From a virus, in IMG/VR virus record IMGVR_UViG_3300030060_002738, positions 1-64,000 of that record: a stretch of DNA of 64,000 bases; one strand, 5' to 3'. Positions 40,886 through 62,297 of the stretch are shown piece after piece. Each line of letters starts with the position of its first letter. Positions within the stretch are counted from its first letter, which is position 1. The notes beneath the pieces are model-generated. The model was given only the letters and a program-made list of their open reading frames with translations. It was not told the origin of the DNA and did not search any database. Both the position numbers and the translations under genes were made by a program.

Positions 40886-41164
40886 ATGAGTTGGGAAGAT
40901 GTATTGAAGAAACCACTTATTCCATCAGAAGAAGAGGTTGAAGAGATGCTCGATTTTATGAACGTCAGTCCTAGAATGAAGATGGCGAAGTTAGAACGTC
41001 AGATTCTAAGAGAGATTGAGAAGGAAGGAGGTGCTTTGGGAATGAAGAACCTGAAGCAGTTTGCTGATGAGGATAAGTTGAAAGAAGTTCTATCTAGCAT
41101 GGAGAAAGAAGGCAAGATATTCATGCACAAGGATGGAGACATCTACACACATGAACCGAAGTGA
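40886..41164 (+). CDS. Small winged-helix-like protein with WxxVLK leader
   Basis: MSWEDVLKK; ..LSSMEKEGKIF. Confidence 0.6.
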   Translation: MSWEDVLKKPLIPSEEEVEEMLDFMNVSPRMKMAKLERQILREIEKEGGALGMKNLKQFADEDKLKEVLSSMEKEGKIFMHKDGDIYTHEPK

Positions 41165-41169
41165 TTTAG

Positions 41170-41484
41170 ATGAGTTGGGAAAAGATATTGAAAGGAAATG
41201 GTAAAGACCCGCAAAACCATACGTTTGCATTTGTTGTTGAATGTGATGTTTACGATATGGATTCAGATGTTGTTGACTTTCATATGGAACAGGGCAGTGA
41301 TTTGATAGAAAATATAGAAGATGCGATTGTTAAAGCATTAGACAAGAAGATAGGTGATGCCATATTTGACCTTCCTGTGGATATCAGTGGAATCGAAAGT
41401 GACATGGAAGAGTTAGAGATGGAAGGGTTTGACACTCTAGAAAACAGGGTTACCGTTTCTATTAGGGCTGTCGCAAAGAAGTGA
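41170..41484 (+). CDS. Acidic protein with WxxILK leader
   Basis: MSWEKILKG. Confidence 0.65.
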   Translation: MSWEKILKGNGKDPQNHTFAFVVECDVYDMDSDVVDFHMEQGSDLIENIEDAIVKALDKKIGDAIFDLPVDISGIESDMEELEMEGFDTLENRVTVSIRAVAKK

Positions 41485-41489
41485 TTGAA

Positions 41490-41732
41490 ATGACATGGTT
41501 CGATGTTCTGAAACTCGACCCTTTGGAATACAACATGCGAATGCGAGACAGGTTGGCTACCAAGCCTCCTTCAAAGCCAACAGCAGAGCCTTCACAAACC
41601 ACTCCTACAAAACAACAGTGTGATGTCTGTGGGAGGATGAAACTAAACGTGAAGGAACGTGCTGATGGCTCTACTATCTGTTCAGTCTGTGAAGCAATGC
41701 AAAGGCGAAAAGATACTGAAGCAACAAGTTAA
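41490..41732 (+). CDS. Zn-finger protein with WxxVLK leader
   Basis: MTWFDVLKL; CDVC...CSVC. Confidence 0.65.
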   Translation: MTWFDVLKLDPLEYNMRMRDRLATKPPSKPTAEPSQTTPTKQQCDVCGRMKLNVKERADGSTICSVCEAMQRRKDTEATS

Positions 41733-41778
41733 TTAGAACAATGTTTATTGTCCACAGTATATTCAGGAGGTTCAGGTT

Positions 41779-41973
41779 GTGTCATCAGCATACGATTCAT
41801 CTTGGTTTAATATCCTGCGAGCGGAGGGCGCAGTTACATCAACCTCCCCCGGAACACAGGCACTATTCAATATAAGATTCGGGGGAAAAAGGAAGCATGG
41901 GAAAAAGAAAAGAAAGAAATCTAAAACCCATAAAGAAGGCAGAGATAGCACCCGGCTTGCCCGTAGACTTTGA
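41779..41973 (+). CDS. Small basic protein with WxxILR motif
   Basis: SSWFNILRA; GGAGG SD. Confidence 0.55.
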   Translation: MSSAYDSSWFNILRAEGAVTSTSPGTQALFNIRFGGKRKHGKKKRKKSKTHKEGRDSTRLARRL

Positions 41974-42985
41974 AGGCGAGATTCCTAACTTCGCTGCTCT
42001 TTACAATCGATGGGAGAAAAAGGCGGAGCAGTTCAAGATTGACTACACTGGTAGAACGAACACCAACGTTTTAGATTGGATTGGAAATATCGGACAGAAG
42101 GGAAGGGCCAAGCCTGATGGTTCGACTGGCACAGCAGTAGCCCCTCCTCAAGAGTACATCGACAGAGCCAAAGATGCTGGAACGAAGGATGAGTATTCTT
42201 CTGAGCAGATATCAGCGATAAAGCAACTTCAACAGTACCTCATAGAGAACAAGAACTCAACGACATCAGAGGTTAATCCTGCCAATATCAAATTCAACGA
42301 CATTCGCTCTTTTGATAAGAGCGGGAAGATACTTTCTAGAAGGGATGTGTATGGTGATTTCAGAACCAAACAGTTTGTGAAGTATCAAGCAAGGCACAAG
42401 AAGAAGACCTTCGCACCTGCGGATACTCACTATCTTTCTAGACAGCCCGGTAAGGCAAGACCCCCTACTTGGCAAGCATTGTTTGGGAATACCAAAGATG
42501 TCGCTTTGGACTTCAATAGTCCTAGTCTTCTGATGATAGCCACTTTCACTCTCGATGCCTTTGCTAGTGGAAAGGCGAAGGGAAAAAACACCAAGGCAAG
42601 ACCATTCAACCTAACTAGGGTTAGGCCAAGCATCAGGGGAGAGGCAGCGAAGTGGGCTTACGAGAACATAAGCGATTTGAAAACTTGGTTCGATAGCAAG
42701 ATGAAGGACTCTTCATACCTTTACACGACTGGTAATCTGAATGACAGAAAATTACACAGAGACATCAAGGAGAGACCCTTCAAGTTGACAGATAATGAAT
42801 CCAAGAAATTGCTAGAGTGGGTAGGGGCAGATGTGAATGTCGATTTGGATAAGGTCTTCATCAATCTATCAAGAAGGCAACTTAGGAATATGGCAGAAAT
42901 TGCTGGTTTTGAGAATCAAAAAGAAAAAGAGGAAGTGAAAAAGCACGATTCCTCGGATTGGAGAGAAATTGTAAAGGCGGTATAG
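41897..42985 (+). CDS. Basic hypothetical protein with C-terminal WREIVK motif
   Basis: 362-aa ORF. Confidence 0.7.
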   Translation: MGKRKERNLKPIKKAEIAPGLPVDFEGEIPNFAALYNRWEKKAEQFKIDYTGRTNTNVLDWIGNIGQKGRAKPDGSTGTAVAPPQEYIDRAKDAGTKDEYSSEQISAIKQLQQYLIENKNSTTSEVNPANIKFNDIRSFDKSGKILSRRDVYGDFRTKQFVKYQARHKKKTFAPADTHYLSRQPGKARPPTWQALFGNTKDVALDFNSPSLLMIATFTLDAFASGKAKGKNTKARPFNLTRVRPSIRGEAAKWAYENISDLKTWFDSKMKDSSYLYTTGNLNDRKLHRDIKERPFKLTDNESKKLLEWVGADVNVDLDKVFINLSRRQLRNMAEIAGFENQKEKEEVKKHDSSDWREIVKAV

Positions 42986-43082
42986 AAAATGAAGTGTAGA
43001 GGAATAAAGGAAGTACACCATGATAATATGGCAATAACGACATGTTGCCCGTATTGTTACACAAATTGTTGGGGTGGTTGAA

Positions 43083-43268
43083 ATGGATTGGAAAAAAATT
43101 CTGAAAGAAGAGATGACTGAGGAAGAGAGAAAGAAGTACATGAAGAGATTAGCAGAGTTGCAGCGATTGGAGGAAAACATGAAGCGAGACGTAGAAGGAA
43201 CTGCTGAAGCATTCAGAGAAGGAGAATCTCTTGAACAGTATAAGAAAAGAATGGGATACAACTTCTAG
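43083..43268 (+). CDS. Small coiled-coil protein with WxxILK leader
   Basis: MDWKKILKE. Confidence 0.6.
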   Translation: MDWKKILKEEMTEEERKKYMKRLAELQRLEENMKRDVEGTAEAFREGESLEQYKKRMGYNF

Positions 43269-43276
43269 GTGATTGG

Positions 43277-43933
43277 ATGATTACGAGAAAGCGGTGTCCT
43301 CTCTGTATGCATGAGGATAGAGCCATGTTTGAGAGTGACTTAGAGGAGATGAGTTACACCGCAGATGCTCTTGACCAACAAATGGGTTGGAAAAGTGGCA
43401 CAACAGCAAAGCATCAGAGGAATCACATGGGAGGATATGTCGATTCTGCCAATCCAAGTTGTAATATCTGCACAAGTCCAATGAGAAACGAGTTAGAAGC
43501 CCAACTTCATGCCGGAGAACTTACTCCTTCGCAGGTTGGAGAGATGGTTGAGAGTTCAGAGGTGCAAGTAATGCGTCATATGGAGAAACATCTTAAGCCA
43601 ATCGTGCAACAATCTGCGGCAAATCTGATTGCAGCGAGAGAAGTCGATGAAATTCAGACCTTGAGCGTCAACGTTCAGCGATTGGAGCAAAAAATTGATA
43701 CACTTTTCTCTGAAGATTCGACAGACCCGAAATATATCGACTCATTGACTAAATTAGCGAAGGAAGTTCGTGAATCTCTGAAGTATTTGCTAGAGTTCAA
43801 GGGCAAACTAGTGCATAAGAGACAAGATACCATCATCGTTCATCAGATGCAGGTCATCAAAGAGGTTCTAGCACAGAATCATCCTGAAGTTTGGTTGGAT
43901 GTAAGAGACAAAATGCAGGAGAAGATGCAATGA
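43277..43933 (+). CDS. Duplicated Zn/HTH protein, candidate terminase small subunit
   Basis: Two CxxC-HTH-HxxxH repeats plus a helical oligomerisation region; upstream of TerL. Confidence 0.5.
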   Translation: MITRKRCPLCMHEDRAMFESDLEEMSYTADALDQQMGWKSGTTAKHQRNHMGGYVDSANPSCNICTSPMRNELEAQLHAGELTPSQVGEMVESSEVQVMRHMEKHLKPIVQQSAANLIAAREVDEIQTLSVNVQRLEQKIDTLFSEDSTDPKYIDSLTKLAKEVRESLKYLLEFKGKLVHKRQDTIIVHQMQVIKEVLAQNHPEVWLDVRDKMQEKMQ

Positions 43934-45687
43934 GTTGGCAAGAGGTTCTCAAAGAAAAGAAGGTTGAAGCAAAACCTGTTGCTGAACCAATAAAGAAACA
44001 GGAAGTCAAGGACTTTCCAATAAAACCCGATTCAGCCACATTCAAGATTTGGCAAGCAGCGTCTAAGGATGATACATGGGCGGATTACACAAAAGACGGT
44101 TTGACTTCTTCCCAAGTCCAATCTGTTCAGAAGGCAAAGAGACTTCTTCAAGGGGAAGTTGTGAACATCGGAGGAACTGACTTTCAGTTAAAGGACAGAG
44201 ATGCGGTAGGTAATGTCAATGCGATTATTTCTAGATTGGATAACATAACACCAAAGAAAACTAGTCTTACTGCGAAGAGAAGAAAGGTTAATGCCGATGT
44301 AAAACACTTCATTCAGAATGAGAAGTATGATGAACTTCTCAATCTACTAGAAGGTAGAGGACAAGACAAGTATGCAGGGAAGTTATCGAATGTTGCTCAA
44401 AGGGCAAGAAAAATAATTCAAGAGTCTAAGATACTGAAGAACAAGATACTCAGTGGTGCTGAAGACAAGCATCCTGAGTTGGTTAGGATAAAGGAAATTC
44501 TAAAGATAGGAGGAGTTCCTCAGATTGAGATAAATCAGACAATTCCCGAACCCACTGTTGTTTCTTACATCAAGAAGATAATGGCACTTAACTTCAGTAA
44601 GAACTCAAGGAACAAGACGGACTTCATCTATGAGGATGCAAACGACCAACTTGCTAGGAATATATTCGGACACACCAAGATTCTTCCTTCATTGGAGTTC
44701 ATCTTGGATAACGAGGGACTGAATGAGAGCAACATACCAACAGCCTACAAGAAGAGAAACGTGATTGAGAACATCGCTTTGCAGAAGTTGATTGCTGGTG
44801 TTCTATCAGAGGAGAACAAGGATGCTCAGAAATCCATCAACAGTATCTACGACAAGTACAAGGAAGACATCGAGGCATTCTACGGGAGAGAGGGGGAGAC
44901 TCCTGAAGAGGCAGAGAAAAGGCAGAAACTTCGTAATGAGAGCAGGGGGAAGTGGGATGCCATATCAAGGAAGGGCAACAAAGCAAGAAGGGACTTCTTC
45001 GCAGAGATTAGGGAAGATGATGACACCAATGCTTACTTTGAGGACTTGATGGCCGAAGTGACAGAGGACAAGACAAACAAGATGACATCGGAGATTAGAG
45101 ATGAACTCGTAGAGGCGTTGCAGAACAGTGACCCCGATGACTTCACAGCCTCTCTCAAAAAACTAGGAATCCAAGACACGTTTGATGACATGGAAGAGAT
45201 TGATGAAAAGTTAGACGTTGACAAGACAATAGATGCTTTAGTGCAAATGAAGACATTGCCTAATGGTCTAGTAAGACCTGTTGCGGGAACAGAGGAGACT
45301 CTCAGATACTTTGACGAGCAGGAGATTGATGCTTGGTCTATCTTAGAGGATGTGATAGATGATGACATCACAACTTTCGATGCAGGACAGACTGGAACAC
45401 TAGACAAGATTGTTATCATACAGAAGAGACTTGGGGAACTGTATGATGTTGAGCCTGAGATAGATGAGGAGGATGTCGAGAACGGAGACATGACCAGCGA
45501 GGAGTTCAAGCAGTTGATTCTAGATACTTACAGCCCGATTCGTAAAGCGTTCCTTGAGGGCGTTGCAAAGAGGATGAAGGACATTAGTGCAGAAGGGAAG
45601 GTTCTAGGAAAGAAGATAAAGAGTTCACAAGGCGGTTTCGTTGAACCTGCCATTTGGATTCAGATACAATTAGGGGTGAGCGAGTGA
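43930..45687 (+). CDS. Large helical virion/internal protein with WxxVLK leader
   Basis: Start re-assigned to MSWQEVLKE (ATGA overlap). Confidence 0.7.
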   Translation: MSWQEVLKEKKVEAKPVAEPIKKQEVKDFPIKPDSATFKIWQAASKDDTWADYTKDGLTSSQVQSVQKAKRLLQGEVVNIGGTDFQLKDRDAVGNVNAIISRLDNITPKKTSLTAKRRKVNADVKHFIQNEKYDELLNLLEGRGQDKYAGKLSNVAQRARKIIQESKILKNKILSGAEDKHPELVRIKEILKIGGVPQIEINQTIPEPTVVSYIKKIMALNFSKNSRNKTDFIYEDANDQLARNIFGHTKILPSLEFILDNEGLNESNIPTAYKKRNVIENIALQKLIAGVLSEENKDAQKSINSIYDKYKEDIEAFYGREGETPEEAEKRQKLRNESRGKWDAISRKGNKARRDFFAEIREDDDTNAYFEDLMAEVTEDKTNKMTSEIRDELVEALQNSDPDDFTASLKKLGIQDTFDDMEEIDEKLDVDKTIDALVQMKTLPNGLVRPVAGTEETLRYFDEQEIDAWSILEDVIDDDITTFDAGQTGTLDKIVIIQKRLGELYDVEPEIDEEDVENGDMTSEEFKQLILDTYSPIRKAFLEGVAKRMKDISAEGKVLGKKIKSSQGGFVEPAIWIQIQLGVSE

Positions 45688-48549: not shown

Positions 48550-49035
48550 ATGGCAGACATACAAATCAAGGAAGTTTCTGAAGCAGAAGCAATCCGCATG
48601 TGGAACAGGGATAACCCCGATGACCCATTCTCAAGACAAGCACCTTCATGGTATGACATACGCAATTGGATAGTGAGAACCAATGATGGAGAAGTAGTCG
48701 CAATAGCAGGTTATACTGACATGGGAGACTATGCCATACTTGGAGGCATGAAGGCTAGGAGTAAAGACAAACCAAAAGGCGGAGGAAACTGGAAGGCTTT
48801 GTTGAACTATCGAAAGAACATACTTGGCAACAAGCCGAAGATAGCAGGGTTTCGTGCAACGAAGATGCCACAGGCAAAATGGACTGCTATGAATGAGAGG
48901 GCAGGTTATCAGCGAAAGGACATGATGGGCATCCCACAGGAACTCACTGACAAGTTCACTGAACGCTATGGAGATGATTGGGGCATAATGAAGAACACAT
49001 CATGGTTCTTCCCAATGATGAGGGGGCTAATTTAG
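48550..49035 (+). CDS. Second GNAT-like protein
   Basis: VVAIAGYTDMGDYAILGG and PKIAG parallel VVAHTSFADMGNWYFIG and PKIAI of 40351. Confidence 0.5.
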   Translation: MADIQIKEVSEAEAIRMWNRDNPDDPFSRQAPSWYDIRNWIVRTNDGEVVAIAGYTDMGDYAILGGMKARSKDKPKGGGNWKALLNYRKNILGNKPKIAGFRATKMPQAKWTAMNERAGYQRKDMMGIPQELTDKFTERYGDDWGIMKNTSWFFPMMRGLI

Positions 49036-50471
49036 TGCCTGAAATAGACAACTTAGATTTTGTATCTAGTATGGATATGGAGTTATCTAGAAACTCATTC
49101 CCATATTTCTTTCAGAACGTATTGGGTATGATGTATCCTGAATATATGAAAGAGTGGCTAGAGTCTATGGAGAAGACAGACAGGACAGTTATCGTTTGTA
49201 GCAGAGACCACGGAAAGTCCGTCTTCATGCATTGTTGGGTTGTATGGAATCTAGTATTCCAAGAGCCTCCCTTTCAGATGCTATACATATCATCGAACCA
49301 AAAGCAGACACTTGTTCACATGAGGGAGATTGACAGATACTTCAATCTACCAGCGTTGAAACAATTCAAGCCTAGTCGTGGATGGGCAATTGGGAACATT
49401 CAACTTACCAACGGCAATGCGATTCTAGAGCGTTCCGTTGGTTCTCAGATTCGTGGTCTTCACCCACAGGAGATTATTATTGACGACCCCCTGAAGGAGT
49501 TCAGTCTCGCTGGTATTCAGAGAGTAACAGACTGGTTCTTCGGTGACATGATTCCGACTTTGCATCACACTTCCAAACTCAGGATGATTGGAACCCCGTT
49601 TACCTACACTGATATTTTTGCACAATTGGAAGAGAACGAGGCATATACTGTCACGAAATATCCATGTCTCAATGCATTGAATGAACCCCTTTGGGCTGAA
49701 CGTTGGGACTTCGATGCACTCATGCAGAGGAAGGCAGAGATAGGTTCTCTGAAGTTCACAAGAGAGTATCTGTGTGTTCCAATCTCCACCGGAACTGCTC
49801 TCTTCAATCCTGAGTTTATCGAGAAGTGTAAGAACAAGGACTACATTTTGAAACTAGGTAATAGAAAAGACAAGGGCTACAAATACTATGTTGGTGTTGA
49901 CCCTGCTATCTCAACTGATGGTGACTACAACGTAATCACGGTTTTAGAGGTGGATGAGAATAAGAACAAGGCAATCGTTCATGTTGATAGAGCGAAGAAC
50001 ATACAGTTCAGAGAGAACATAGAGAAGATACGTTTGATTGGTAAGGTGTTTGAGCCGGAGGAGATTCTGTTTGAGACCAACACCTTCGCAAAGGCATTCA
50101 CACAGGAACTCAAGAATATGACAGATTTGAATGTCAGAGACTTCAACACAACGAGAAAGAAGAAACAGGAGATAATTCTAAATCTTCAGATGAATATAGA
50201 GAATCAGAAGATAATTATGCCGTATGGTGATAATGCGAGTAGAAGGTTGACTGGTGCTTTGATTGAGGAACTGTCGATGTTCTCAATCACTACCAGTGGT
50301 AGGTTTGAGGGTGTCGGCGCACATGACGATTTAGTGATGAGTTTAGCATTGGCAAATGCTGCTGCACAGGGAACAGGAGAACAGTTCGTTTTACTTGATG
50401 ACTTGGACATCTTTGATGAACCTACCACTACTCGGCGTAGTGTGTCAGGCGTGATGGGTATCAATTTCTGA
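48978..50471 (+). CDS. terL: Terminase large subunit
   Basis: SRDHGKS, IRGLHP..IIIDD, IGTP, GVDPA, HDDLVMS. The likely start is GTG 49035 or later. Confidence 0.92.
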   Translation: MGHNEEHIMVLPNDEGANLVPEIDNLDFVSSMDMELSRNSFPYFFQNVLGMMYPEYMKEWLESMEKTDRTVIVCSRDHGKSVFMHCWVVWNLVFQEPPFQMLYISSNQKQTLVHMREIDRYFNLPALKQFKPSRGWAIGNIQLTNGNAILERSVGSQIRGLHPQEIIIDDPLKEFSLAGIQRVTDWFFGDMIPTLHHTSKLRMIGTPFTYTDIFAQLEENEAYTVTKYPCLNALNEPLWAERWDFDALMQRKAEIGSLKFTREYLCVPISTGTALFNPEFIEKCKNKDYILKLGNRKDKGYKYYVGVDPAISTDGDYNVITVLEVDENKNKAIVHVDRAKNIQFRENIEKIRLIGKVFEPEEILFETNTFAKAFTQELKNMTDLNVRDFNTTRKKKQEIILNLQMNIENQKIIMPYGDNASRRLTGALIEELSMFSITTSGRFEGVGAHDDLVMSLALANAAAQGTGEQFVLLDDLDIFDEPTTTRRSVSGVMGINF

Positions 50472-51848: not shown

Positions 51849-51849
51849 A

Positions 51850-53581: not shown

Positions 53582-54382
53582 GTGAGTTGGTTTGACGCTA
53601 TCAAGGAAGAATCAAAGTTCACTCCTGAGAATCTATCCGAAGAGAAGAGAAGACTGTTTGAGTCTGAGCCATCCTTTGAGGTAGACTTCCCTGATTATGA
53701 GCATCCTGATAATGAAGAGGAACTGCCAAAAGTCATCGCCATGATGAAGAATAATGGTATTGACGAGGATGAGATGGAGGACTTAGACCAAAACAATATC
53801 GAGATGATGTTGGAGATTGTCGGTGAGGAGAAGGAAGACAGGGAGGATTTGATTGAAGATATTGATATTCACACAATCAAACTCAAAGTCAAGTATGGCA
53901 GACCAAGACCATACGAAATATCAGATGAGATAGAATCCACAACTGATACGGATGACAGTCCATCTTTTCCAAGCGGTCATGCGATGGAGGCTTATGCTTT
54001 AGCGAAGATTCTAGGAAAACAGTATCCTGATAAGGAAGAGGAGTTGATGAAACTTGCCGGAAAGATATCACTATCTAGAGTAAGAATGGGAAATCATTAT
54101 CCAAGTGACATAGAGGTTGGGAAGAAAGCAGGACTTCTAATTGCTGATGCGTATCTATCTGAGTCAAAGATTGAGAAGTGGCAAGATATCCTGCACAAGA
54201 AAAGGAAAAGCAAGTCCAAGGTAAATCAGGCAGGAAACTACACAAAGCCCGGTATGAGAAAGAGGATGTTTCAGAGAATCAAAGCGGGTAGCAAAGGTGG
54301 CCCTGCTGGTAAGTGGTCAGCGAGGAAGGCACAGTTGCTTGCTCAAAGATACAAGAAAGCAGGTGGTGGTTATCGTGGCTGA
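53582..54382 (+). CDS. PAP2-superfamily phosphatase fused to a basic C-terminal domain
   Basis: K..YGRPRP, SFPSGH, SR...GNHYPSD; C-terminal NYTKP...GKWSARKAQLLA..YKKAGGGY. Confidence 0.8.
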   Translation: MSWFDAIKEESKFTPENLSEEKRRLFESEPSFEVDFPDYEHPDNEEELPKVIAMMKNNGIDEDEMEDLDQNNIEMMLEIVGEEKEDREDLIEDIDIHTIKLKVKYGRPRPYEISDEIESTTDTDDSPSFPSGHAMEAYALAKILGKQYPDKEEELMKLAGKISLSRVRMGNHYPSDIEVGKKAGLLIADAYLSESKIEKWQDILHKKRKSKSKVNQAGNYTKPGMRKRMFQRIKAGSKGGPAGKWSARKAQLLAQRYKKAGGGYRG

Positions 54383-54647
54383 TTGGTTTGATTTTCTAAA
54401 GGCCAAGTCAAAGTCTCAGAGGTCTCTGTCAACTTGGACAGATGAGGAGTGGGGGAGTCAAGAACAGCATCGTGCAAAAGAGAAGGGAAAAAAAGCACCT
54501 TCCAAAACCAAAGGAAGATACATGCCAAAGGCCACATACAAAAGAACCCCAAAGAAGACATTGGACTATCAAGACAGAAAGAAAAGGAAGGGTCGTAAGA
54601 AAGGAAAGCAACATGTCCCAACAGGAAGGAAGTTCTCTCAGAAGTGA
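54375..54647 (+). CDS. Basic protein (DUF5872-like second half) with WxxFLK leader
   Basis: GTG start MADWFDFLKA; QRSL..WT.EEW...GRYMPK...KQHV. Confidence 0.6.
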   Translation: MADWFDFLKAKSKSQRSLSTWTDEEWGSQEQHRAKEKGKKAPSKTKGRYMPKATYKRTPKKTLDYQDRKKRKGRKKGKQHVPTGRKFSQK

Positions 54648-55060
54648 TTATCATGCCAATTCGTAAAGTCAAAGGAGGATACAAGTGGGGCAAGAAGGGC
54701 AAGGTCTATCGAAGTCGTAAAGGTGCTGAGAGACAAGCAGCCGCCGCTTATGCTTCAGGCTACAAGAAGTCAATGAATTGGTTTGATACTCTAAAGAGAG
54801 ACAAGAAAGACATGAGAGTTGGTACTGTTTATCCTTCAGATAGAGAAGGTAAGAAAATTATGATGCTAACCCATGAAGGAAAGAAGATTCATGCTGGTGC
54901 TAAAGGCTACGGTAATTACAAGAGAAAGGGTAAGAATCGTGGAGGTGGAACACACAAAGACCCTGCTAGGAGAAAGAATTTCAGAGCAAGGCATAACTGT
55001 GACCAATGTAAAGGTAGAATTACTACCCCTAAGTGCCTAGCATGTAAAAAACTGTGGTGA
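54644..55060 (+). CDS. Basic two-domain protein with internal MNWFDTLK
   Basis: GGYKWG.KGK domain plus HKD..RR.NFRARH domain (DUF5754-like). Confidence 0.6.
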   Translation: MIIMPIRKVKGGYKWGKKGKVYRSRKGAERQAAAAYASGYKKSMNWFDTLKRDKKDMRVGTVYPSDREGKKIMMLTHEGKKIHAGAKGYGNYKRKGKNRGGGTHKDPARRKNFRARHNCDQCKGRITTPKCLACKKLW

Positions 55061-55065
55061 GAGAG

Positions 55066-55242
55066 ATGAATTGGAAAGAGACATTGAAGAAACAAACAGA
55101 GAACGAACCTAAAATGGTTGACCCTGCTCAACAAGAGGAGATGGACAAGGCACTTGTTGGAGGTCAGAAGGAACTCGACAAAGACAAGGATGGAGACATT
55201 GATGCTAAAGATTTCAAACAACTAAGGGAGGAAAGGAAATGA
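55066..55242 (+). CDS. Small EF-hand-loop protein with WxxTLK leader
   Basis: MNWKETLKK; LDKDKDGDIDAKDF. Confidence 0.6.
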   Translation: MNWKETLKKQTENEPKMVDPAQQEEMDKALVGGQKELDKDKDGDIDAKDFKQLREERK

Positions 55243-55469
55243 CAGAGAAAAAGAAAGGAGTAAGAGAATTGGAAAGAGAACTAGCAGAAGCAAGAGCAGA
55301 GCAATACGCTCACCACAGTAGAAGTGTGACAAAGAACAGGGACTTCTCTGTTGGGGGTGTTGACCCTAATGCTGTGAAGAAGGAGAGACCTGATACAGCA
55401 GATGTTCCTGATGCAATCCTACTACCTAAGAAAAAGAGGTCAAGAACACCGAACAACCCTTGGGGATGA
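55239..55469 (+). CDS. Hypothetical protein
   Basis: ATGA-coupled. Confidence 0.6.
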   Translation: MTEKKKGVRELERELAEARAEQYAHHSRSVTKNRDFSVGGVDPNAVKKERPDTADVPDAILLPKKKRSRTPNNPWG

Positions 55470-56557
55470 TTCAGATGGCGCAGGATTTCATGGATATCTT
55501 GCGTAAGAAGAAGGATGAAGATTTCTTTACTGGCGAGGAGGATATCACTGATTTCCAAAGAGATGTCGAACAGGACACTGATGAGGGAACGACTGACACC
55601 ATGATGGGCAGGTTGGATAGAGATACTAGACAAGGGATAAGCGGTGCAGAGGCAGCAGACGAACTAGATGCGAAGAGAAAGAAGAAGTTGCAGGAAAAGG
55701 CAGTTAGTGCGAAGAACCTACAAATGTGGGGAAGGATACTAGAAACCTTCAGTAAAAACCCTGACATCACGGCTAATGAAATACGGGATGCAGTAAAGGA
55801 GTTCAGTAAATCTTTCTTGATTCCAAGAAATAGAAGCAAAGATAAGATAAACAGATTCTATCAGAGTATAATAACACAACAAGCAGACCCTAAACTCTTG
55901 AACTTGTTTTTTGCCAAGCCTGAAGATAAAGGCATACAAGTTTCAGGAGATGTAGAAGCACTTGGCTTCGACCTCTCAGAAGTAGAAAGGGAATATAATG
56001 GACAAGAATCGCTTGATATTCTAAGAGAGTTCTTTGAAGCAACTGCTGATATGCCTAGAGATTTGCTTACTGGTAAGAAGATGACGAGGAGTAAATTGGA
56101 CAGGTTAGAAGCCATGCTCATAAACACAGCAAAAATGGATACCGATAATCTCCCTAAAGACCCTAAGCAGATACTGAAACTTTTCAGAGAAATAGTATTG
56201 ACTCTTGATAGATACAAGGAAAATGAACAGTCTAAACTTAGCAAAGAAGACTCGACTATTGATAGTAAGGATAGAAATTGGGAAATGAAAGTCGAACCCG
56301 GTGAGTTTTCCTATCAAACAGAGACAGAAGTATTCGATATAAATCCCTCTGTTCTAGGTAGTGTAGAGGTTCTACTAGACAATCTTGAGAACATGATGAA
56401 CGATGTAACACAAAGAAAAACTAACTCTGATGATACAGATGAAGTAGATAGTTTGGATAAACTGCTGAAGCAGATGAAGAGTTTAATTAAAGTAACAATA
56501 GGAGATTACAAATTCAAACTCTCAGATGATGAAACAAGGGCAATTAAAATTAACTGA
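55460..56557 (+). CDS. Hypothetical (probable virion) protein
   Basis: Leader variant DFMDILRK. Confidence 0.65.
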   Translation: MGMIQMAQDFMDILRKKKDEDFFTGEEDITDFQRDVEQDTDEGTTDTMMGRLDRDTRQGISGAEAADELDAKRKKKLQEKAVSAKNLQMWGRILETFSKNPDITANEIRDAVKEFSKSFLIPRNRSKDKINRFYQSIITQQADPKLLNLFFAKPEDKGIQVSGDVEALGFDLSEVEREYNGQESLDILREFFEATADMPRDLLTGKKMTRSKLDRLEAMLINTAKMDTDNLPKDPKQILKLFREIVLTLDRYKENEQSKLSKEDSTIDSKDRNWEMKVEPGEFSYQTETEVFDINPSVLGSVEVLLDNLENMMNDVTQRKTNSDDTDEVDSLDKLLKQMKSLIKVTIGDYKFKLSDDETRAIKIN

Positions 56558-56578
56558 GCATACACAGGAGGCAACCAC

Positions 56579-56908
56579 ATGACATGGCAGGAGATACTGA
56601 AAGCCTCCGAGTTTCTAGAGAAACTAGAGCCAAAACAGAAGAAGAAGATAAAGAAACTTCTTCAGTCAACACAGCCAACTGAGTACATGGGACAAGAGAT
56701 GACGAAGTTAGAAGATGTCATTAAGGAGATGGAAGACCTCGATTTAGTAAAAACAGACAAACTACTCACAAAGAAGATGAAGTCCTTCCGTGAGAAGAAT
56801 CTAGACATACTCGCAAGTGCTGCTGAACTTCGCAAAGATTATCAAACGCTCTATGACCAAATCAGGAGCGTAGCATACCCAAAGGGTGACAAGGAGGAAA
56901 AGAAATGA
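56579..56908 (+). CDS. Helical protein with WxxILK leader
   Basis: MTWQEILKA. Confidence 0.7.
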   Translation: MTWQEILKASEFLEKLEPKQKKKIKKLLQSTQPTEYMGQEMTKLEDVIKEMEDLDLVKTDKLLTKKMKSFREKNLDILASAAELRKDYQTLYDQIRSVAYPKGDKEEKK

Positions 56909-57231
56909 ATTGGTTTGACATAATGAAAATATACGGCAATGAAGAGGAGAATAATCTACCTAGAGAAATACTTGACCTTCTTGAGAAGTTAGAAGAAATA
57001 GAAACAGACTACAATGCTAAGGTGGATGAATTTGATTACGAGTTAAGCGAAACATGTGAAAAGATACTTGACTTTGTACAGAATGATGCAAATTTGGAAG
57101 GTAAGAATAAAAATGTCCTAATAAACATAACTAGAGAACATCAGAGGAAGTCAGTTTCAGAAAGTGACTATGAAACAGTATATCACTATTTCACAGATAT
57201 CTATACCGAATTAAACGAGGTGGAAGAGTGA
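56905..57231 (+). CDS. Acidic protein with WxxIMK leader
   Basis: MNWFDIMKI. Confidence 0.65.
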   Translation: MNWFDIMKIYGNEEENNLPREILDLLEKLEEIETDYNAKVDEFDYELSETCEKILDFVQNDANLEGKNKNVLINITREHQRKSVSESDYETVYHYFTDIYTELNEVEE

Positions 57232-57407
57232 GTTGGTTTGAAACACTAAAGGGAGATTGTGGCACAGAGAAGTCAGATGAGATGGCAAGAGTTACAACAA
57301 CAGCCTCCACCGGACAAGACAAAGAAGCGGCCAAGAGGACTGAGGATAAAGAAGCAGAACTATTGGCTATGATACGTGAGAGAAACAAGAAAGCGAGGGG
57401 AAATTAA
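57228..57407 (+). CDS. 59-aa protein with WxxTLK leader (not in the ORF track)
   Basis: GTG start, MSWFETLKGDC...; GTGA overlap. Confidence 0.65.
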   Translation: MSWFETLKGDCGTEKSDEMARVTTTASTGQDKEAAKRTEDKEAELLAMIRERNKKARGN

Positions 57408-57725
57408 ATGACATGGCATGACATACTAAAAGCACCTCCAATAAGAAACCCTAGAGAATCAGAGTTTGATGATAGAAGTAATGACAATCTATCATTGCCT
57501 GAGTATGTTGATTTGTTCAGAGAGAAAGTAGACCCAATAATAAGAGAAGCAGGTGAAAGGGAAGAAAAGTATGCAACCATTAAACTCACTGACTTGAAAA
57601 TGACACGGACAAAGGCACAAGAAATAGCAAGGGAACTATATAGGGACAAAGGCTACGCCGCAATATTTGCTGGTTCAGATGGTGAATTAACATTCAAACT
57701 AGAAGGGGAACAAAGGAAGTATTAA
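57408..57725 (+). CDS. Protein with WxxILK leader
   Basis: MTWHDILKA. Confidence 0.7.
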   Translation: MTWHDILKAPPIRNPRESEFDDRSNDNLSLPEYVDLFREKVDPIIREAGEREEKYATIKLTDLKMTRTKAQEIARELYRDKGYAAIFAGSDGELTFKLEGEQRKY

Positions 57726-57727
57726 AG

Positions 57728-57952
57728 ATGAGCAAAAAAGAAGAAAAAGACGAAATGTTACTATTAATGAAAGAACTTGTGAACAAGGTCAACGCCTTGG
57801 AGCAAGCAGTATACAACAAGGACAACCTACTGATGAAGTCAGGATATGTTGTTCGTGAGACTCCAACACCAGTTATGAACAATACACAAGTTCCTGATGG
57901 TGGTCAAATGTCTTGGGATGAGATTCGCAAGATGACGGAGAAAATGGGGTGA
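57728..57952 (+). CDS. Small scaffold-like protein
   Basis: Coiled coil, LMKS site; C-terminal MSWDEIRKM resembles the protease/scaffold C-terminus. Confidence 0.6.
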   Translation: MSKKEEKDEMLLLMKELVNKVNALEQAVYNKDNLLMKSGYVVRETPTPVMNNTQVPDGGQMSWDEIRKMTEKMG

Positions 57953-57957
57953 GATGA

Positions 57958-58449: not shown

Positions 58450-58452
58450 GGG

Positions 58453-61017
58453 ATGAAAACATCAGGCGTATCCTTTGAAAAGGAAACTAAGGCTCTATCA
58501 AAAAGAGTTCTAGATTTCTTTGAGAGGGTGCGTTACGCATACCTATCTGCAAAGGAGAACCCGAAGGAGTACGGTAAGAACTGGAAGGCAACCGTCAAAT
58601 CCATCCGTGAAGAGTATGATGGGCTAGGAGAGTTCGCTAGTGAACTGAAAGAGAACGTCAAGGAGAAGGAACTCTTTGACGACAAGGTGTATGATGCTGA
58701 GAGTCTACTTGCTAGAAGGGTGTATGAAGACATAAAGAGAATGCGATTTGAGTCAAAGGGAGCGGCAGACCCGTTTTCAGAACAACTAGGAAATAAGGTC
58801 TTAGAAGTCCTATTAGACGACAAGGCTACTTTCGCTGCATTCATTCACTATGCTTTGAGAAGTCACTCCAACCCACTGCCTAAGAAAGCATGGAAAGAGA
58901 GCAAACTAAAGCCTGACGAAATAACTCAGGGATACATGGGATTGGACTTAGAAGAGAGAGATATTCCTCTATACATCATTGAGCATTATGGTGATGATAA
59001 GGACTCTAGGAGAGTGCAAGGAAAGTTCAAAGAAGCACTTGGTATTTTAGAGGAAGTATACAACAGCAGTTATACAGAAGACAAGTGGGAAGCCTTGAGA
59101 GATATCGATATCGCAAAGTCCGAGGAAATGAAAGAGGACATTGATTTCATCATACCCAACAAACCGATGTATAGAATCTTTGAGTTAGATGACATGAAAG
59201 ACATCAAGGGGCTGAGTGGAGAGTATGTCGTACAAGAGAAGTATGATGGAATGAGAATACAAATCCAAAAGGTCAACAAGGACATCAAGATATACTCATA
59301 CAATGAAAAGGACATCACGGATAAATGTCCTGAGATTGTAGAGAAGATGCAGAAAAAGGGGATTGGTGACTGCGTTCTAGATGGCGAACTACTACTGTTT
59401 CAAGGAGACGATGCACTACACAGAGCGAGTGTGATAACTCACATCTTCAAGAAGAAGATACCCGATACAAGACTAAGAGCGCATGTCTTTGATGTTATGA
59501 AGCACGAAGGTAAGGACTTGATGGATGAACCTCTAAGAGAAAGGATAAACATTCTATTCTATCAATACTCGCAACACTCATCAGATGAATTGGCTTTCCC
59601 TTCCAAGAAGGATACAAGGATTGCTGACTCTATGGAGGAAGTCGGAGAGTATGCAGAGAAGATAATGGAGATGCCAACCTCGGAAGGTGTTGTCATCAAG
59701 GACATCGAATCTACATACTACATGGGTAGGAAGAAGAACCCTAAGTGGATTAAGTGGAAGAAGTTCGTGGATTTAGATGTCATAGTCCTAGAAGACAGGA
59801 AGACCAAAAGCGGTTTGCATTCATACACTATGGGAATAGGGCCATTGACTGCTGAACAGACTAGAGAGATGAAGACAATTGAACTCGATGATAAGAACTA
59901 CCTCCCTGTTGGTAAGGCATTGAATACCAAAGTAGAGGTTGATATTGGAGATATCATTCGTGTCAAGGTTGATGAGGTTACTAAGAAGGGCAAGGGATTC
60001 AGTCTCTACTCTGCTAAAGTCATAGAGTTGCCTGAAGTAGAAGAGTCAGACAAGTTGGAGACATTGGAGCAACTAGCCACTAAGACGAAGAAAGCCCTGA
60101 TACCGAAACATCCTTTCATCAGACCATCTGATTTGACTAGCCCTCTCACAGTCATATCAGAATTACAGAGAGAAAAGAAGAACAAGAGGAGGATAAAGAA
60201 ATATCTTGTTACCGATTATGTTCATGGTGAAGCAGAGATAATCTGTAAGCATGAACTAGAGGGGTTCACAATCTATGGGTTCGATGGTGATTCCCTAATG
60301 CAGAAGAATGCACTTTACAATATGGATGAATGGAGAGGACAACTAGAGAAACTAATGAAGTCTCGGAAGTCCAAACTCAGAGTTGCAATTAGAAAAATCA
60401 TAGAGGAGAATCAGAAACCCGTAGATTTCGATGAGTTAGATGAGAAACTGAGAATTACCGAGGAAGATGCATATGATGAAATCTTTGAGGGCAAACCAAA
60501 GAACCTCTTGGCATGGATGAAGAATCAAGATGCTTTCATCTTTATTTCTCCTGACAAGTTTGATGTTTCTCCTGAGAATATAGAGAAGGATGAGGATAAG
60601 GAATTAACAGGAGAGTTTGAAGTCAGACAGCGTGAGGATGGAAACTTAGATTTCATAATAGAGACTGATAACAAGAGAATGGCTTGGTTAATTGACCTAG
60701 AAAAGCCTGAAGATATCTTTGATTTATTTGGTAAGTCAGGAAAGTTCCCTGCTATGGTATCAGAGAAGATAGACAGCACAAAAGTCATTGATAGCGGAGA
60801 ACTGTTGTTTGGTGTTCAACGAGATGGTTATCATGAATATCGAATGGAAGGAGATAAGTTCCAAACTAGAATACACTTCAGAGTTGTTCCACTAGATGAG
60901 AAAAAGTCTTGGATAGTATTTACAGGCAAGAAACAGGACATGTTAGAAGATACTTCTGATGAAGGAATCATCGATATTAGAAAAGACAAGTTTAGTAATT
61001 TACAACTACCTGAATAA
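58453..61017 (+). CDS. Second ATP-dependent DNA ligase with N- and C-terminal extensions, in the head module
   Basis: EKYDGMR, LDGEL, FDVM, EGVVIK, WIKWK, OB domain. Confidence 0.85.
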   Translation: MKTSGVSFEKETKALSKRVLDFFERVRYAYLSAKENPKEYGKNWKATVKSIREEYDGLGEFASELKENVKEKELFDDKVYDAESLLARRVYEDIKRMRFESKGAADPFSEQLGNKVLEVLLDDKATFAAFIHYALRSHSNPLPKKAWKESKLKPDEITQGYMGLDLEERDIPLYIIEHYGDDKDSRRVQGKFKEALGILEEVYNSSYTEDKWEALRDIDIAKSEEMKEDIDFIIPNKPMYRIFELDDMKDIKGLSGEYVVQEKYDGMRIQIQKVNKDIKIYSYNEKDITDKCPEIVEKMQKKGIGDCVLDGELLLFQGDDALHRASVITHIFKKKIPDTRLRAHVFDVMKHEGKDLMDEPLRERINILFYQYSQHSSDELAFPSKKDTRIADSMEEVGEYAEKIMEMPTSEGVVIKDIESTYYMGRKKNPKWIKWKKFVDLDVIVLEDRKTKSGLHSYTMGIGPLTAEQTREMKTIELDDKNYLPVGKALNTKVEVDIGDIIRVKVDEVTKKGKGFSLYSAKVIELPEVEESDKLETLEQLATKTKKALIPKHPFIRPSDLTSPLTVISELQREKKNKRRIKKYLVTDYVHGEAEIICKHELEGFTIYGFDGDSLMQKNALYNMDEWRGQLEKLMKSRKSKLRVAIRKIIEENQKPVDFDELDEKLRITEEDAYDEIFEGKPKNLLAWMKNQDAFIFISPDKFDVSPENIEKDEDKELTGEFEVRQREDGNLDFIIETDNKRMAWLIDLEKPEDIFDLFGKSGKFPAMVSEKIDSTKVIDSGELLFGVQRDGYHEYRMEGDKFQTRIHFRVVPLDEKKSWIVFTGKKQDMLEDTSDEGIIDIRKDKFSNLQLPE

Positions 61018-61055
61018 CCACCTACTTCTTATAGTAAGAGAAATAGGTGCAGTGA

Positions 61056-62297
61056 GTGTTTGCTGAACAGGAGGTATTGATTAGACAAGAGAGTGCTAGT
61101 GATTTTACTATTCTCAAGTCAGATAATCTAGTAATTGGAGGATATGCTTCAATAGAAATAGTAGATAAACAGAATGACTTGATTACACTAGAAGCACTTG
61201 AAAAAGCCGTTAAAGATTTCATGAGTGAGAAGTCTTACAGAAACGTCATGTCAAATCATTCCAACGTTCAGGTAGGAGAGGTGATAGAGCAATACCGTGA
61301 TTCCAATGGTACATTACACAAGACAGGTGTAGATGGTGTCGGATTCTATGTGGTTATCAAAATGAGAGATGACATAGAAAAGGCAAAAGAGATTAACAGA
61401 GGAATCAGAAAAGGCTCACTACGCTCTTTCAGTATTGGTGGACAAGCGATATCAAAGAGAGAGAGAAAATCGGAGGAATACGGGGAATACAACGAGATTG
61501 ACAACTTAGAGTTGCATGAAGTTACTATATGTGAGAAAGGAATAAACCCTGAAGCGAAATTCGACATTTTAAAAGCGAAAGGAGGTAAAGAAATGACGGA
61601 AAAATTGACGAAAGCATTGGAAGAACTCAACGGTCTGCTAACACAGGTTCGTGAAGTTACTGGTGAAACAGTCGCAAAAGAAGATGAATTGGAGACAATG
61701 GAAATGAAAGAAGATGAAAAAATGATGACCGAAAAGGAAGAAGTTGAGAGTATGGACATGGATGAAGATAAAATGTCTATGAAGGAAGACGAAGTTGAGA
61801 GCATGGATATGGAAGAGAAGGCTCTTGATGAAGACTCGACTAGAGACTATGAGGCTGGCGAGAACGTTGTAGTAAACGGAAAGCCAGTGGCAGCACCTGC
61901 TGCACTATCAGTCTCTAAGGGTCTAGAAGGTACTGACTTCACGACTCTCGACCTAAGTGCCGAGAATGTAGAGAAGGCTTACGAGGCTTACAAAGCAGAG
62001 CAACTAGAGGCAATGGCTTACGATAACCTATCGAAGCAATTTGCTGACAGATTTGCTGCTGAACTTGAAGTCAAGAAATCAGCCGCAGAGAGAGCAGAAT
62101 ACGATGCTTCAACAGAAGTAGCCGCTCTCAAAGAGGAGTTTGCAGAACTACGCAAGTCTCTTACTGCAAAGGATGATGAGATAAGGAAAGCAACAGAAGT
62201 CGCTTTCTCTCTACCTGAAGGATTCCCAACCACTGCTGACGCAATGGCTGAGATGTCATGGGGAGACATACACAACCTCGCAAGGAAGGTGAACTAA
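61056..62297 (+). CDS. Prohead maturation protease fused to scaffold
   Basis: GYAS...DKQND, HSN..VG, SFSIGG, LHEVTICEKGINPEA; acidic/coiled-coil C-terminus. Confidence 0.88.
   Translation: MFAEQEVLIRQESASDFTILKSDNLVIGGYASIEIVDKQNDLITLEALEKAVKDFMSEKSYRNVMSNHSNVQVGEVIEQYRDSNGTLHKTGVDGVGFYVVIKMRDDIEKAKEINRGIRKGSLRSFSIGGQAISKRERKSEEYGEYNEIDNLELHEVTICEKGINPEAKFDILKAKGGKEMTEKLTKALEELNGLLTQVREVTGETVAKEDELETMEMKEDEKMMTEKEEVESMDMDEDKMSMKEDEVESMDMEEKALDEDSTRDYEAGENVVVNGKPVAAPAALSVSKGLEGTDFTTLDLSAENVEKAYEAYKAEQLEAMAYDNLSKQFADRFAAELEVKKSAAERAEYDASTEVAALKEEFAELRKSLTAKDDEIRKATEVAFSLPEGFPTTADAMAEMSWGDIHNLARKVN

What the first reader, a model, noticed from the sequence alone, without database searches (positions are those of the whole stretch)
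40886..62297. Shared W-x-x-(I/V/T)-L-K peptide at about 20 sites: candidate capsid cargo-loading signal that mimics the scaffold C-terminus
Seen at N-termini: MSWEDVLK (40886), MSWEKILK (41170), MTWFDVLK (41490), SSWFNILR (41779), MDWKKILK (43083), MSWQEVLK (43930), MSWFDAIK (53582), MADWFDFLK (54375), MNWKETLK (55066), DFMDILRK (55475), MTWQEILK (56579), MNWFDIMK (56905), MSWFETLK (57228), MTWHDILK (57408). Seen internally at domain junctions: KWQDILHK, MNWFDTLK. Seen at C-termini: DWREIVK (gene ending 42985), MSWDEIRK (gene ending 57952) and MSWGDIHN at the very end of the protease-scaffold. The rest of these proteins is unrelated, and codons differ, so the conservation is at protein level. 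Established: scaffold C-terminal helices bind the capsid interior, and T4 internal proteins use a cleavable N-terminal capsid-targeting sequence. Inference: a modular zip-code packages many enzymes and DNA-binding proteins into the head, analogous to encapsulin cargo peptides.
Basis: partly seen in the sequence, partly recalled or inferred. Interest (0 to 1): 0.85.

Follow-up and report, generated by a model that had tools for sequence, protein, structure and literature searches.

The report
Address tag on archaeal virus proteins
About fifteen otherwise unrelated small proteins of this ocean archaeal virus carry the same eight-residue end peptide, most likely an address label that loads them into the virus head, though no experiment has yet shown loading.

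Summary
In this complete 98-kb magrovirus, 13-14 genes between 40.9 and 57.7 kb, plus one at 3.7 kb, start with M-[STND]-W-x-[DE]-[IVT]-[LIV]-K (8 strict DNA matches against 0.03 expected). Nothing beyond residue 8-10 is shared, and Leu, Ile, Val and Lys codons vary.

Related viruses carry 13-24 tagged genes per genome, in more than 117 cargo families. These are small, soluble and mostly acidic. Almost all lie in the gene string that runs into terminase, portal, protease-scaffold and capsid genes.

- One core protein family carries the tag at its C-terminus, so it works at either end.
- A sister lineage uses a second dialect, M-x-A-F-[ED]-x-A-W-x-[ILV]-L-K. At least four cargo families carry type 1 in one lineage and type 2 in the other, so the tag follows the virus, not the cargo.
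- Cell genomes hold it only at about the chance level, and no Poseidoniales record is among the hits.

The best reading is a T4-like capsid-targeting label on a fast-changing payload (about 0.5). "Mimics the scaffold C-terminus" is weak: the likeness is partial, and the scaffold helix stays the same while the tag changes.

The scan noted this tag before on another genome (e1-5996401). I found no paper describing it.

The parts
40886..41164 (+). tagged gene, 92 aa, starts MSWEDVLK
41170..41484 (+). tagged gene, 104 aa, starts MSWEKILK
41490..41732 (+). tagged gene, 80 aa, starts MTWFDVLK; has two CxxC pairs
41779..41973 (+). doubtful 64-aa ORF with SSWFNILR at residues 8-15; it overlaps the start of p362 in another frame across an A-rich run
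41897..42985 (+). p362, a core protein with the tag at its C-terminus (DWREIVKAV, 42956-42982); the C-terminal tag is kept in orthologues down to 23-28% identity
43083..43268 (+). tagged gene, 61 aa, starts MDWKKILK
43277..43933 (+). p218, an untagged Cys-rich core protein that always sits beside the tagged arrays in both tag lineages (context)
43930..45687 (+). p585, a core tagged protein (MSWQEVLK). In a family alignment at 16-20% pair identity, three of the five invariant columns are M1, W3 and L7. Residues 1-24 are of low confidence in the model
48978..50471 (+). terminase large subunit (context)
51850..53484 (+). portal protein (context)
53582..54382 (+). tagged gene, 266 aa (GTG start, SWFDAIK): acidic region, PAP2 phosphatase domain, a second internal tag KWQDILHK (54176-54199), then a basic tail
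54375..54647 (+). tagged gene, 90 aa, very basic, starts M-A-D-W-F-D-F-L-K (GTG start)
54773..55060 (+). tagged reading frame, 95 aa, basic, starts MNWFDTLK; in frame within ORF 54644-55060, so the tag is either a start or internal
55066..55242 (+). tagged gene, 58 aa, starts MNWKETLK
55475..56557 (+). 360-aa gene with a degenerate tag (MAQDFMDILRK, no W, 2.3 bits); membership doubtful
56579..56908 (+). p109, a core tagged protein (MTWQEILK); all-helical model with the tag as helix 3-9 at lower confidence
56905..57231 (+). tagged gene, 108 aa, starts MNWFDIMK
57228..57407 (+). tagged gene, 59 aa, GTG start, SWFETLK
57408..57725 (+). tagged gene, 105 aa, starts MTWHDILK
57728..57952 (+). p74, a small coiled-coil protein ending in the scaffold-type helix MSWDEIRKMTEKMG (57908-57949); paralogous to the scaffold C-terminus and present in both tag lineages
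61056..62297 (+). S78 prohead protease fused to a scaffold, ending MSWGDIHNLARKVN (62253-62294); this C-terminal helix is conserved in all relatives and in distant S78-scaffold fusions
62299..63660 (+). major capsid protein (HK97-type family match); candidate receptor, untested

Best explanation
The eight-residue peptide M-[STND]-W-x-[DE]-[IVT]-[LIV]-K is a portable address label. It forms a short, self-capped amphipathic helix: S2 and D5 fit a helix capping box, M1 and I6 a hydrophobic staple, and W3, I6 and L7 make up the binding face. A flexible linker joins it to the cargo. A partner matched to the virus lineage reads it, most likely the inside of the assembling head (capsid protein or scaffold core).

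On this reading, a large and fast-changing set of small proteins is enclosed in the prohead and delivered with the DNA, as phage T4 does with its internal proteins. The invariant Lys at position 8 may also be the site where the S78 head protease clips the label off.

Shown: the tag exists, is under protein-level selection, is modular, works at either terminus, is specific to the virus lineage, and sits in the head-gene string. Inferred: the destination (capsid), the partner, and any cleavage.
For: 1. Non-random and at the protein level: 8 strict matches against 0.03 expected; 419 against 1 by strand in relatives; six Leu codons in use.
2. The tag is the only shared part of more than 117 cargo families. 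In the p585 family at 16-20% identity, three of the five invariant columns are M1, W3 and L7.
3. Placement: in five complete genomes, 65 of 184 genes in the co-oriented string ending at the capsid gene are tagged, against 4 of 485 elsewhere. None lie in the tail or replication modules. The string from 40886 to the capsid gene is tightly packed, and tagged genes sit between portal and scaffold.
4. Either terminus: the p362 family keeps the tag at its C-terminus.
5. Modularity and lineage specificity: a sister lineage has no type-1 tags but has a type-2 dialect in the same genomic place. At least four cargo families carry type 1 in one lineage and type 2 in the other at 63-81% body identity.
6. 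Not a cellular signal: 75 scattered single hits in 596 Gb of cell genomes, about the chance level (my estimate is roughly 50), with no Poseidoniales record among them.
7. A tethered peptide: p585 residues 1-24 have pLDDT below 50, and the p109 tag is helix 3-9.
8. Cargo is small and soluble, with no membrane-spanning stretch. It is mostly acidic with a very basic minority, as with T4 internal proteins.
9. Precedents: the T4 targeting sequence MKTYQEFIAE on diverse internal proteins; the P1 DarB N-terminal signal; the partial likeness to this virus's own scaffold and p74 C-terminal helix.
Against: - There are no virion data, no binding data and no complex prediction.
- The likeness to the scaffold helix is modest (0.4 and 6.6 bits), and the scaffold helix does not co-vary with the tag dialect. 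The tag need not use the scaffold's site.
- 13-24 carriers per genome (about 10-20% of genes) is a very large payload for a 95-kb virus.
- Much of the tagged array lies upstream of the terminase, next to an accessory-gene cassette region, and could be early rather than late.
- One carrier is in the opposite-strand module (3710).
- Only PAP2 has a recognisable domain, and Foldseek gave nothing for p585. No cargo is a known virion protein.
- Ser2 is almost always AGT, which points to some DNA-level history or start-site constraint as well.
Confidence: 0.5

Rival explanations
1. The tag docks the proteins onto a hub other than the capsid. Candidates are a virus-encoded machine (replication or transcription complex, the viral ubiquitin-like tagging system, a chaperonin) or a host protein. 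The arrays would then be early host-takeover or anti-defence effectors that act in the cytoplasm.
For: The carriers are small, acidic, hypervariable proteins with no known family, which is typical of early phage effectors. The largest array lies at the start of the rightward gene string, next to the promoter-cassette region at 36.8-40 kb. The tag dialect changes with lineage while the scaffold helix does not.
Against: Tagged genes also sit between portal and scaffold, in the core of the head operon. None lie in the replication module. Cell genomes hold the tag only at about the chance level, so it does not copy a common host motif. Chaperonins are present in only 12 of 26 magroviruses (PMC5434244), whereas tags were present in every complete genome examined here.
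Confidence: 0.25
2. The tag is a recognition or cleavage signal only: a degron or a site for the S78 head protease or a host protease. It would time the removal of these proteins without addressing them anywhere.
For: Position 8 is Lys in 389 of 419 tags. The S78 protease of HK97 cuts its capsid protein after Lys103 (sequence FNK|S; the cut site itself is from my own knowledge). The scaffold is a known protease substrate and carries a related helix.
Against: A cut eight residues from the N-terminus would change little unless the peptide had another role. The same tag at the C-terminus of p362 does not fit an N-degron. A head protease acts inside proheads, which again requires packaging.
Confidence: 0.08
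3. The tag is a membrane-targeting amphipathic helix, like those of MinD, FtsA or SepF, that brings many viral proteins to the host membrane.
For: It is a short terminal amphipathic helix with W, F, I, L and K that can sit at either terminus. This is a comparison from my own knowledge.
Against: Membrane-binding helices are defined by amphipathicity and tolerate wide sequence change. Here W is invariant and K nearly so across more than 117 families, and an acidic residue (Asp/Glu) predominates within the helix (260 of 419 type-1 tags, Asn/Ser in most others; 59 of 66 type-2 tags). Eight residues is shorter than known examples. Lineage-specific dialects on the same cargo point to a protein partner.
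Confidence: 0.07
4. The tag has no function as a peptide. On this view it is a relic of a shared 5' gene-start module spread by recombination, or a translation-initiation optimum.
For: Ser2 is AGT in 79 of 80 families, and the third base of codon 4 is A rather than G. Second codons in general prefer a purine first base.
Against: Leu7 uses six codons, and Ile, Val, Lys and Asp vary. AGC-TGG is excluded by genome-wide AGCT avoidance. The tag also occurs at C-termini and internally, where initiation is irrelevant. W3 and L7 are invariant in a family that has otherwise diverged to 16% identity.
Confidence: 0.03

Closest known systems
Capsid targeting sequence (CTS, MKTYQEFIAE) of phage T4 internal proteins IPI-III (PMC8442874; PMC3012670; Mullaney and Black 1996)
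   Same: Both are short N-terminal peptides shared by otherwise unrelated, fast-changing small proteins, some very basic, encoded by a tailed virus. In T4 the peptide alone loads foreign proteins into the prohead. The patterns are alike: hydroxyl residue, aromatic, x, acidic, two hydrophobics (T-Y-Q-E-F-I against S-W-x-D-I-L).
   Different: There is no sequence homology. The head protease belongs to family S78 here, which from my own knowledge differs from the family of the T4 protease gp21. The carriers make up 10-20% of genes rather than a handful. The tag also works at a C-terminus. There are two lineage dialects. The host is an archaeon. Packaging and clipping are untested here.
N-terminal capsid-targeting signal of phage P1 DarB (PMC9024508)
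   Same: An N-terminal signal of 30 residues or fewer directs a protein, and a reporter, into the capsid for delivery into the host, as part of an anti-restriction payload.
   Different: In P1 no consensus is shared among the Dar proteins. Here a strict consensus is shared by more than 100 families.
C-terminal capsid-binding ends of scaffolds and head proteases (HK97 gp4: Duda, Oh and Hendrix 2013, PMID 23688818, listed in PMC12749128; details from my own knowledge)
   Same: The virus's own protease-scaffold and p74 end in a conserved helix. That helix is kept in distant S78-scaffold fusions and shares M-S-W-x-[DE]-I with the tag.
   Different: The tag's strongest residues (L7, K8) are absent from the scaffold helix. 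The scaffold helix is constant across lineages whose tags differ. The tag is mostly N-terminal.
Targeting peptides of Family 1 encapsulins (PMC11664910)
   Same: A terminal peptide of about 10 residues on cargo binds the inside of an HK97-fold shell during assembly.
   Different: Encapsulin peptides are almost always C-terminal, and each shell usually has one cargo. Here the shell is a true virus capsid with portal and terminase, and there are dozens of cargo families.
Encapsulation peptides of bacterial microcompartments (my own knowledge)
   Same: An amphipathic helix at either terminus, joined to unrelated enzymes by a poorly conserved linker.
   Different: Those are about 18 residues long and defined by amphipathicity rather than a strict consensus. 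The shell is unrelated.

Membership tests
T4-type capsid targeting sequence system | A short conserved terminal peptide shared by otherwise unrelated proteins of one virus | tested here: met
T4-type capsid targeting sequence system | Carrier genes are hypervariable between related viruses while the peptide is kept | tested here: met
   117 type-1 and 58 type-2 cargo clusters, many of them singletons
T4-type capsid targeting sequence system | Carriers are present inside the capsid | not testable with these tools
   No isolate and no virion proteome. The nearest isolates (haloviruses HVTV-1, HCTV-1 and HCTV-5) are distant; in the head-region genes of HVTV-1, the only one inspected, I saw no such tag
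T4-type capsid targeting sequence system | The peptide is sufficient to load a foreign protein | not testable with these tools
   The nearest natural evidence is that at least four cargo families carry either dialect according to lineage
T4-type capsid targeting sequence system | The peptide is removed by the head protease at a defined site | tested here: inconclusive
   K8 is nearly invariant, and the HK97 S78 protease cuts after Lys. There is no conserved residue after position 8 and no cleavage data
T4-type capsid targeting sequence system | Sequence homology to MKTYQEFIAE and a T4-type head protease | tested here: not met
   Pattern likeness only. The protease matches Pfam S78
Scaffold C-terminal capsid-binding helix (mimicry claim) | The tag matches the scaffold's C-terminal helix beyond chance | tested here: inconclusive
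   The scaffold scores 0.4 bits (about rank 27 of 17,028 positions) and p74 6.6 bits (rank 9). The two are paralogues, so they do not count as independent
Scaffold C-terminal capsid-binding helix (mimicry claim) | Tag and scaffold helix change together across lineages | tested here: not met
   The sister lineage keeps M-[ST]-W-[DE]-E-[IV]-H in both scaffold and p74, but its tags read A-F-x-x-A-W-x-x-L-K
Encapsulin Family 1 targeting peptide | A C-terminal peptide of about 10 residues on cargo encoded next to a non-viral HK97-fold shell gene | tested here: not met
   The tag is mostly N-terminal. The locus has terminase, portal, head protease and tail genes

The most novel reading that the evidence does not exclude
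Magroviruses, among the most abundant viruses of ocean archaea, devote 10-20% of their genes to a swappable arsenal of small proteins. Each is labelled with a lineage-specific eight- to twelve-residue address tag that loads it into the capsid for co-injection with the DNA. This would be an archaeal-virus counterpart of the T4 internal proteins on a much larger scale, with at least two tag dialects that keep payloads matched to their own capsid.
Probability: 0.45. Interest if true: 0.85.

Novelty: new variant of a known kind. Interest (0 to 1): 0.72.

Why it matters
No protein-sorting signal is known for any archaeal tailed virus, and most magrovirus genes have no assigned function. A single peptide rule would assign a common fate to 13-24 genes per genome and to hundreds of orphan families in ocean viromes.

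If that fate is the capsid, these proteins are the first things the host cell meets, which makes them the obvious place to look for archaeal anti-defence factors. The two dialects on shared cargo form a natural swap experiment. The idea is directly testable without a cultured host: co-express capsid protein, protease-scaffold and p74 with tagged reporters. The tag could also serve as a loading handle for HK97-type protein cages.

Tried and rejected
- Paralogy of the carriers: rejected. blastp finds only the first 8-10 residues in common.
- A pure DNA or translation signal: rejected, given synonymous variation and the C-terminal and internal copies. The AGT and AGC bias is partly explained by AGCT avoidance and a purine preference at the second codon.
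- A host-type signal: only chance-level hits in 596 Gb of cell genomes.
- Function from domains: Pfam and PHROGs were blank for 19 of 20 large cargo representatives, with PAP2 the only hit. The protein atlas gave nothing for p585. Foldseek against PDB and viral models gave no usable match.
- Haloviruses as an experimental proxy: in the head-region genes of HVTV-1 I saw no tag, and its protease has no W helix at its C-terminus.
- Cargo carrying the scaffold-type C-terminal helix: none. That helix occurs only in scaffold and p74.
- Conservation of the tag within the p109 family: uninformative, because the whole protein is equally conserved.
- Single-protein searches for distant protease-scaffolds in viral contigs: found nothing. 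An alignment query did work.
- My first look at the sister lineage wrongly suggested 'no tag'. The arrays lie more than 20 kb from the protease, and the dialect differs.
Metagenome records could not be extended. Duda et al. 2013 is not held. No multimer prediction was available, so no peptide-capsid docking was done.

Full report
**What the window is.** The window is the first 64 kb of a complete 98,040-bp IMG/VR virus record. Composition and ORFs show a leftward block (4-36 kb) and a rightward block from 36 kb.

Pfam and PHROGs identify these genes:
- terminase large subunit, 48978-50471
- an HNH-like protein, 50481-51848
- portal, 51850-53484
- an ATP-dependent DNA ligase, 58453-61017
- an S78 prohead protease fused to an acidic scaffold region, 61056-62297
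- major capsid protein, 62299-63660

Tail genes fill 64-98 kb. Earlier notes call the record a magrovirus. The nearest isolates by protease similarity are haloarchaeal siphoviruses, as the magrovirus literature describes (PMC5434244).

- A six-frame search finds W-x-x-[IVT]-[LIV]-K directly after a start codon and one residue at 40886, 41170, 41490, 43083, 43930, 53582, 55066, 56579, 56905, 57228 and 57408. It lies one residue further in at 54375, and at 54773 in frame inside ORF 54644-55060.
- A strict DNA form of the motif gives 8 matches in the window against 0.03 expected from shuffles.
- blastp among the carriers aligns only the first 8-10 residues.
- Two listed sites are doubtful: 41779 is a short overlapping ORF with the tag at residues 8-15, and 55475 has no W.
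- No gene in 64-98 kb carries the tag.

**Protein-level selection, with a DNA footnote.** I took one representative from each of 117 cargo families.
- Leu7 uses all six codons, and Ile, Val, Lys and Asp vary.
- Ser2, however, is AGT in 79 of 80 cases, and codon 4 ends in A rather than G.
- Part of this bias is general: second codons in untagged genes start with a purine in 78% of cases.
- Part is restriction-site avoidance. AGCT occurs twice against 312 expected, which forbids AGC-TGG.
- The same Ser in the scaffold-type helix uses TCT, TCA, TCG and AGT. The AGT monopoly is therefore peculiar to the N-terminal tags. It hints that the tags share DNA ancestry or face an especially strict start context.
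- It does not undo the protein-level argument, because the tag also occurs away from start codons.

**Breadth.**
- The portal protein retrieved 80 related loci. They hold 419 tagged starts on the coding strand and 1 on the other. The logo is M, S, W, [FQEK], [DENS], [IVT], [LIV], K, with nothing conserved after it.
- The carriers fall into 117 blast clusters, many of them singletons. Median length is 101 aa. Eighty-four clusters have pI below 6 and 20 have pI of 9 or more. None has a membrane-spanning stretch.
- Only the PAP2 family has a Pfam match.
- A DNA pattern for M-x-W-F-D-I-L-K found 63 stretches in IMG/VR, most of them magrovirus-like, with up to 15 tagged genes in 14 kb.
- The same pattern found 75 scattered single hits in 596 Gb of bacterial and archaeal genomes. 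That is about the number I estimate from chance (roughly 50). No Poseidoniales record is among them.

**Where the tagged genes lie.**
- I examined five complete genomes whose protease-scaffolds are 49-68% identical. In all five, tagged genes are co-oriented with the head genes and fall into two blocks.
- One block lies upstream of the conserved run p362, p218, p585, p963 and terminase. The other lies between portal and p109.
- By a crude gene call, 65 of 184 genes inside this string are tagged, against 4 of 485 outside. The block limits were set after seeing the data, so the p-value is only indicative.
- In this window the string from 40886 to the capsid gene is tightly packed. Many starts and stops overlap, and only four gaps exceed 30 nt.
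- The palindrome-bounded accessory cassettes noted by others stop at 40 kb and carry no tags.

**The tag works at either end and is the best-kept part of its carriers.**
- The p362 family has no N-terminal tag. It ends in D-W-R-E-I-V-K-A-V, and its orthologues keep a tag-like C-terminus down to 23-28% identity.
- In the p585 family, with pairs at 16-20% identity, the only invariant columns are M1, W3, L7 and two tyrosines.
- AlphaFold2 places p585 residues 1-24 below pLDDT 50, ahead of a helical body. It models the p109 tag as helix 3-9 with lower confidence than the rest.
- From established helix-capping rules, S/T/D/N at position 2 with D/E at position 5 is a capping box, and M1 with I6 is a hydrophobic staple. 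The peptide therefore reads as a self-starting two-turn helix presenting W3, I6 and L7. This is inference.

**The scaffold comparison.**
- All relatives' protease-scaffolds end in [MLIV]-[SD]-W-x-[DE]-[IL]-[HNA]-x-hydrophobic, six to nine residues from the end.
- A whole-library HMMER search shows the same kind of C-terminus in many distant S78-scaffold fusions. This fits a capsid-binding end, as known for scaffolds and for the HK97 protease (my own knowledge; Duda et al. 2013).
- The 74-aa protein p74 ends in the same helix and clusters with the scaffold C-terminus.
- On a matrix built from N-terminal tags, however, the scaffold site scores 0.4 bits and p74 scores 6.6 bits. These rank about 27th and 9th of 17,028 positions. 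That is suggestive but not compelling, and the two are paralogues.
- No cargo carries the scaffold-type helix.

**A second dialect, and the same cargo with different tags.**
- A more distant group of about 100-kb viruses has a protease-scaffold that aligns full-length at 33-37% identity, and capsid protein at 37-39%. It keeps M-[ST]-W-[DE]-E-[IV]-H at the ends of both scaffold and p74.
- This group has no type-1 tag anywhere in four large records.
- Reading the genes upstream of its p218 and terminase revealed another shared start, M-x(1-3)-[AP]-F-[ED]-x-A-W-x-[ILV]-L-K.
- A pattern scan found 42 stretches in IMG/VR, with up to 13 such genes in 13.5 kb. In all, 84 proteins fall into 58 clusters. 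The two dialects almost never share a contig.
- A 90-aa protein with the type-2 tag is 63% identical over 75 residues to proteins with the type-1 tag. The alignment sets A-W-(gap)-D-I-L-K against S-W-F-D-I-V-K, so the dialects are variants of one tag.
- Further families behave the same way, at 65%, 75% and 81% body identity.
- The tag therefore follows the virus lineage and not the cargo. An address read by a lineage-matched partner predicts exactly this.
- Because the scaffold helix did not change with the tag, the partner's site need not be the scaffold's.

**Interpretation.** The layered conclusion is as follows.
- With high confidence, this is a modular docking peptide.
- With moderate confidence (about 0.5), its destination is the prohead. 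The grounds are its position in the head-gene string, the partial likeness to the virus's own head-internal helices, the nature of the cargo, and close precedents.
- Those precedents are the T4 capsid-targeting sequence MKTYQEFIAE, shared by diverse internal proteins and sufficient to load foreign proteins (PMC8442874, PMC3012670), and the N-terminal signal of P1 DarB (PMC9024508). Encapsulin targeting peptides are a further analogue in HK97-fold shells (PMC11664910).
- The near-invariant Lys8 and the fact that HK97's S78 protease cuts after Lys103 suggest clipping after the tag. That is conjecture.
- The rivals are a non-capsid hub for early effectors, a processing signal, a membrane-binding helix, and a functionless relic. 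Each is set out in the rival explanations with what would refute it.

**Novelty.** The magrovirus papers I could search do not mention any shared terminal motif or targeting signal. The scan's own notes record the same tag on another genome (e1-5996401) and analogous tags in many phages. Those are unchecked AI notes, not independent evidence.

Noticed in passing
whole record G000 (window 1-64000 and beyond): Near-total avoidance of three short palindromes: AGCT 2 observed against 312 expected, GATC 2 against 480, CGCG 1 against 48. GTAC and CATG are moderately depleted. This looks like escape from host restriction enzymes.
   Followed up: partly
window 41779-41973 and 41897-42985: A 64-aa ORF carrying a tag overlaps the start of p362 in another frame across an A-rich run (GGGGGAAAAAGGAAG...). 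It could be a frameshift, programmed or an assembly error, that would give p362 a tag at both ends.
   Followed up: no
window 61551-61571: The S78 protease domain ends with A-K-F-D-I-L-K, close to the tag's W-F-D-I-L-K. Similar F-x-[IV]-L endings are seen in distant S78 proteases. This may be coincidence or a pseudo-substrate.
   Followed up: no
window 53582-54382: A PAP2-family phosphatase domain sits in the head operation string, flanked by an acidic N-region and a Lys/Arg-rich tail, with a tag at the start and another between the domain and the tail.
   Followed up: partly
window 58453-61017: An 854-aa protein with an ATP-dependent DNA ligase core (residues about 216-543) lies between the small head proteins and the protease-scaffold. 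The sister lineage has a 1694-1789-aa protein in the same place.
   Followed up: no
window 50481-51848: A 455-aa protein with an HNH-endonuclease-like C-terminal part is inserted between terminase and portal. In another complete genome this slot holds tagged genes instead.
   Followed up: no
L417 (IMGVR_UViG_3300030117_005706, 103 kb): This is the only contig seen with both dialects: three type-2 tags and one type-1 tag (MSWFEILK).
   Followed up: no
L088, L103, L104, L113, L136: A single protein starting MAWFDILK recurs in viral contigs with no similarity to this virus. It is probably an unrelated conserved protein rather than a tag system.
   Followed up: no
five complete genomes (G000-G004): Second codons of untagged genes begin with a purine in 78% of cases, a general start-context preference in these viruses.
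   Followed up: partly
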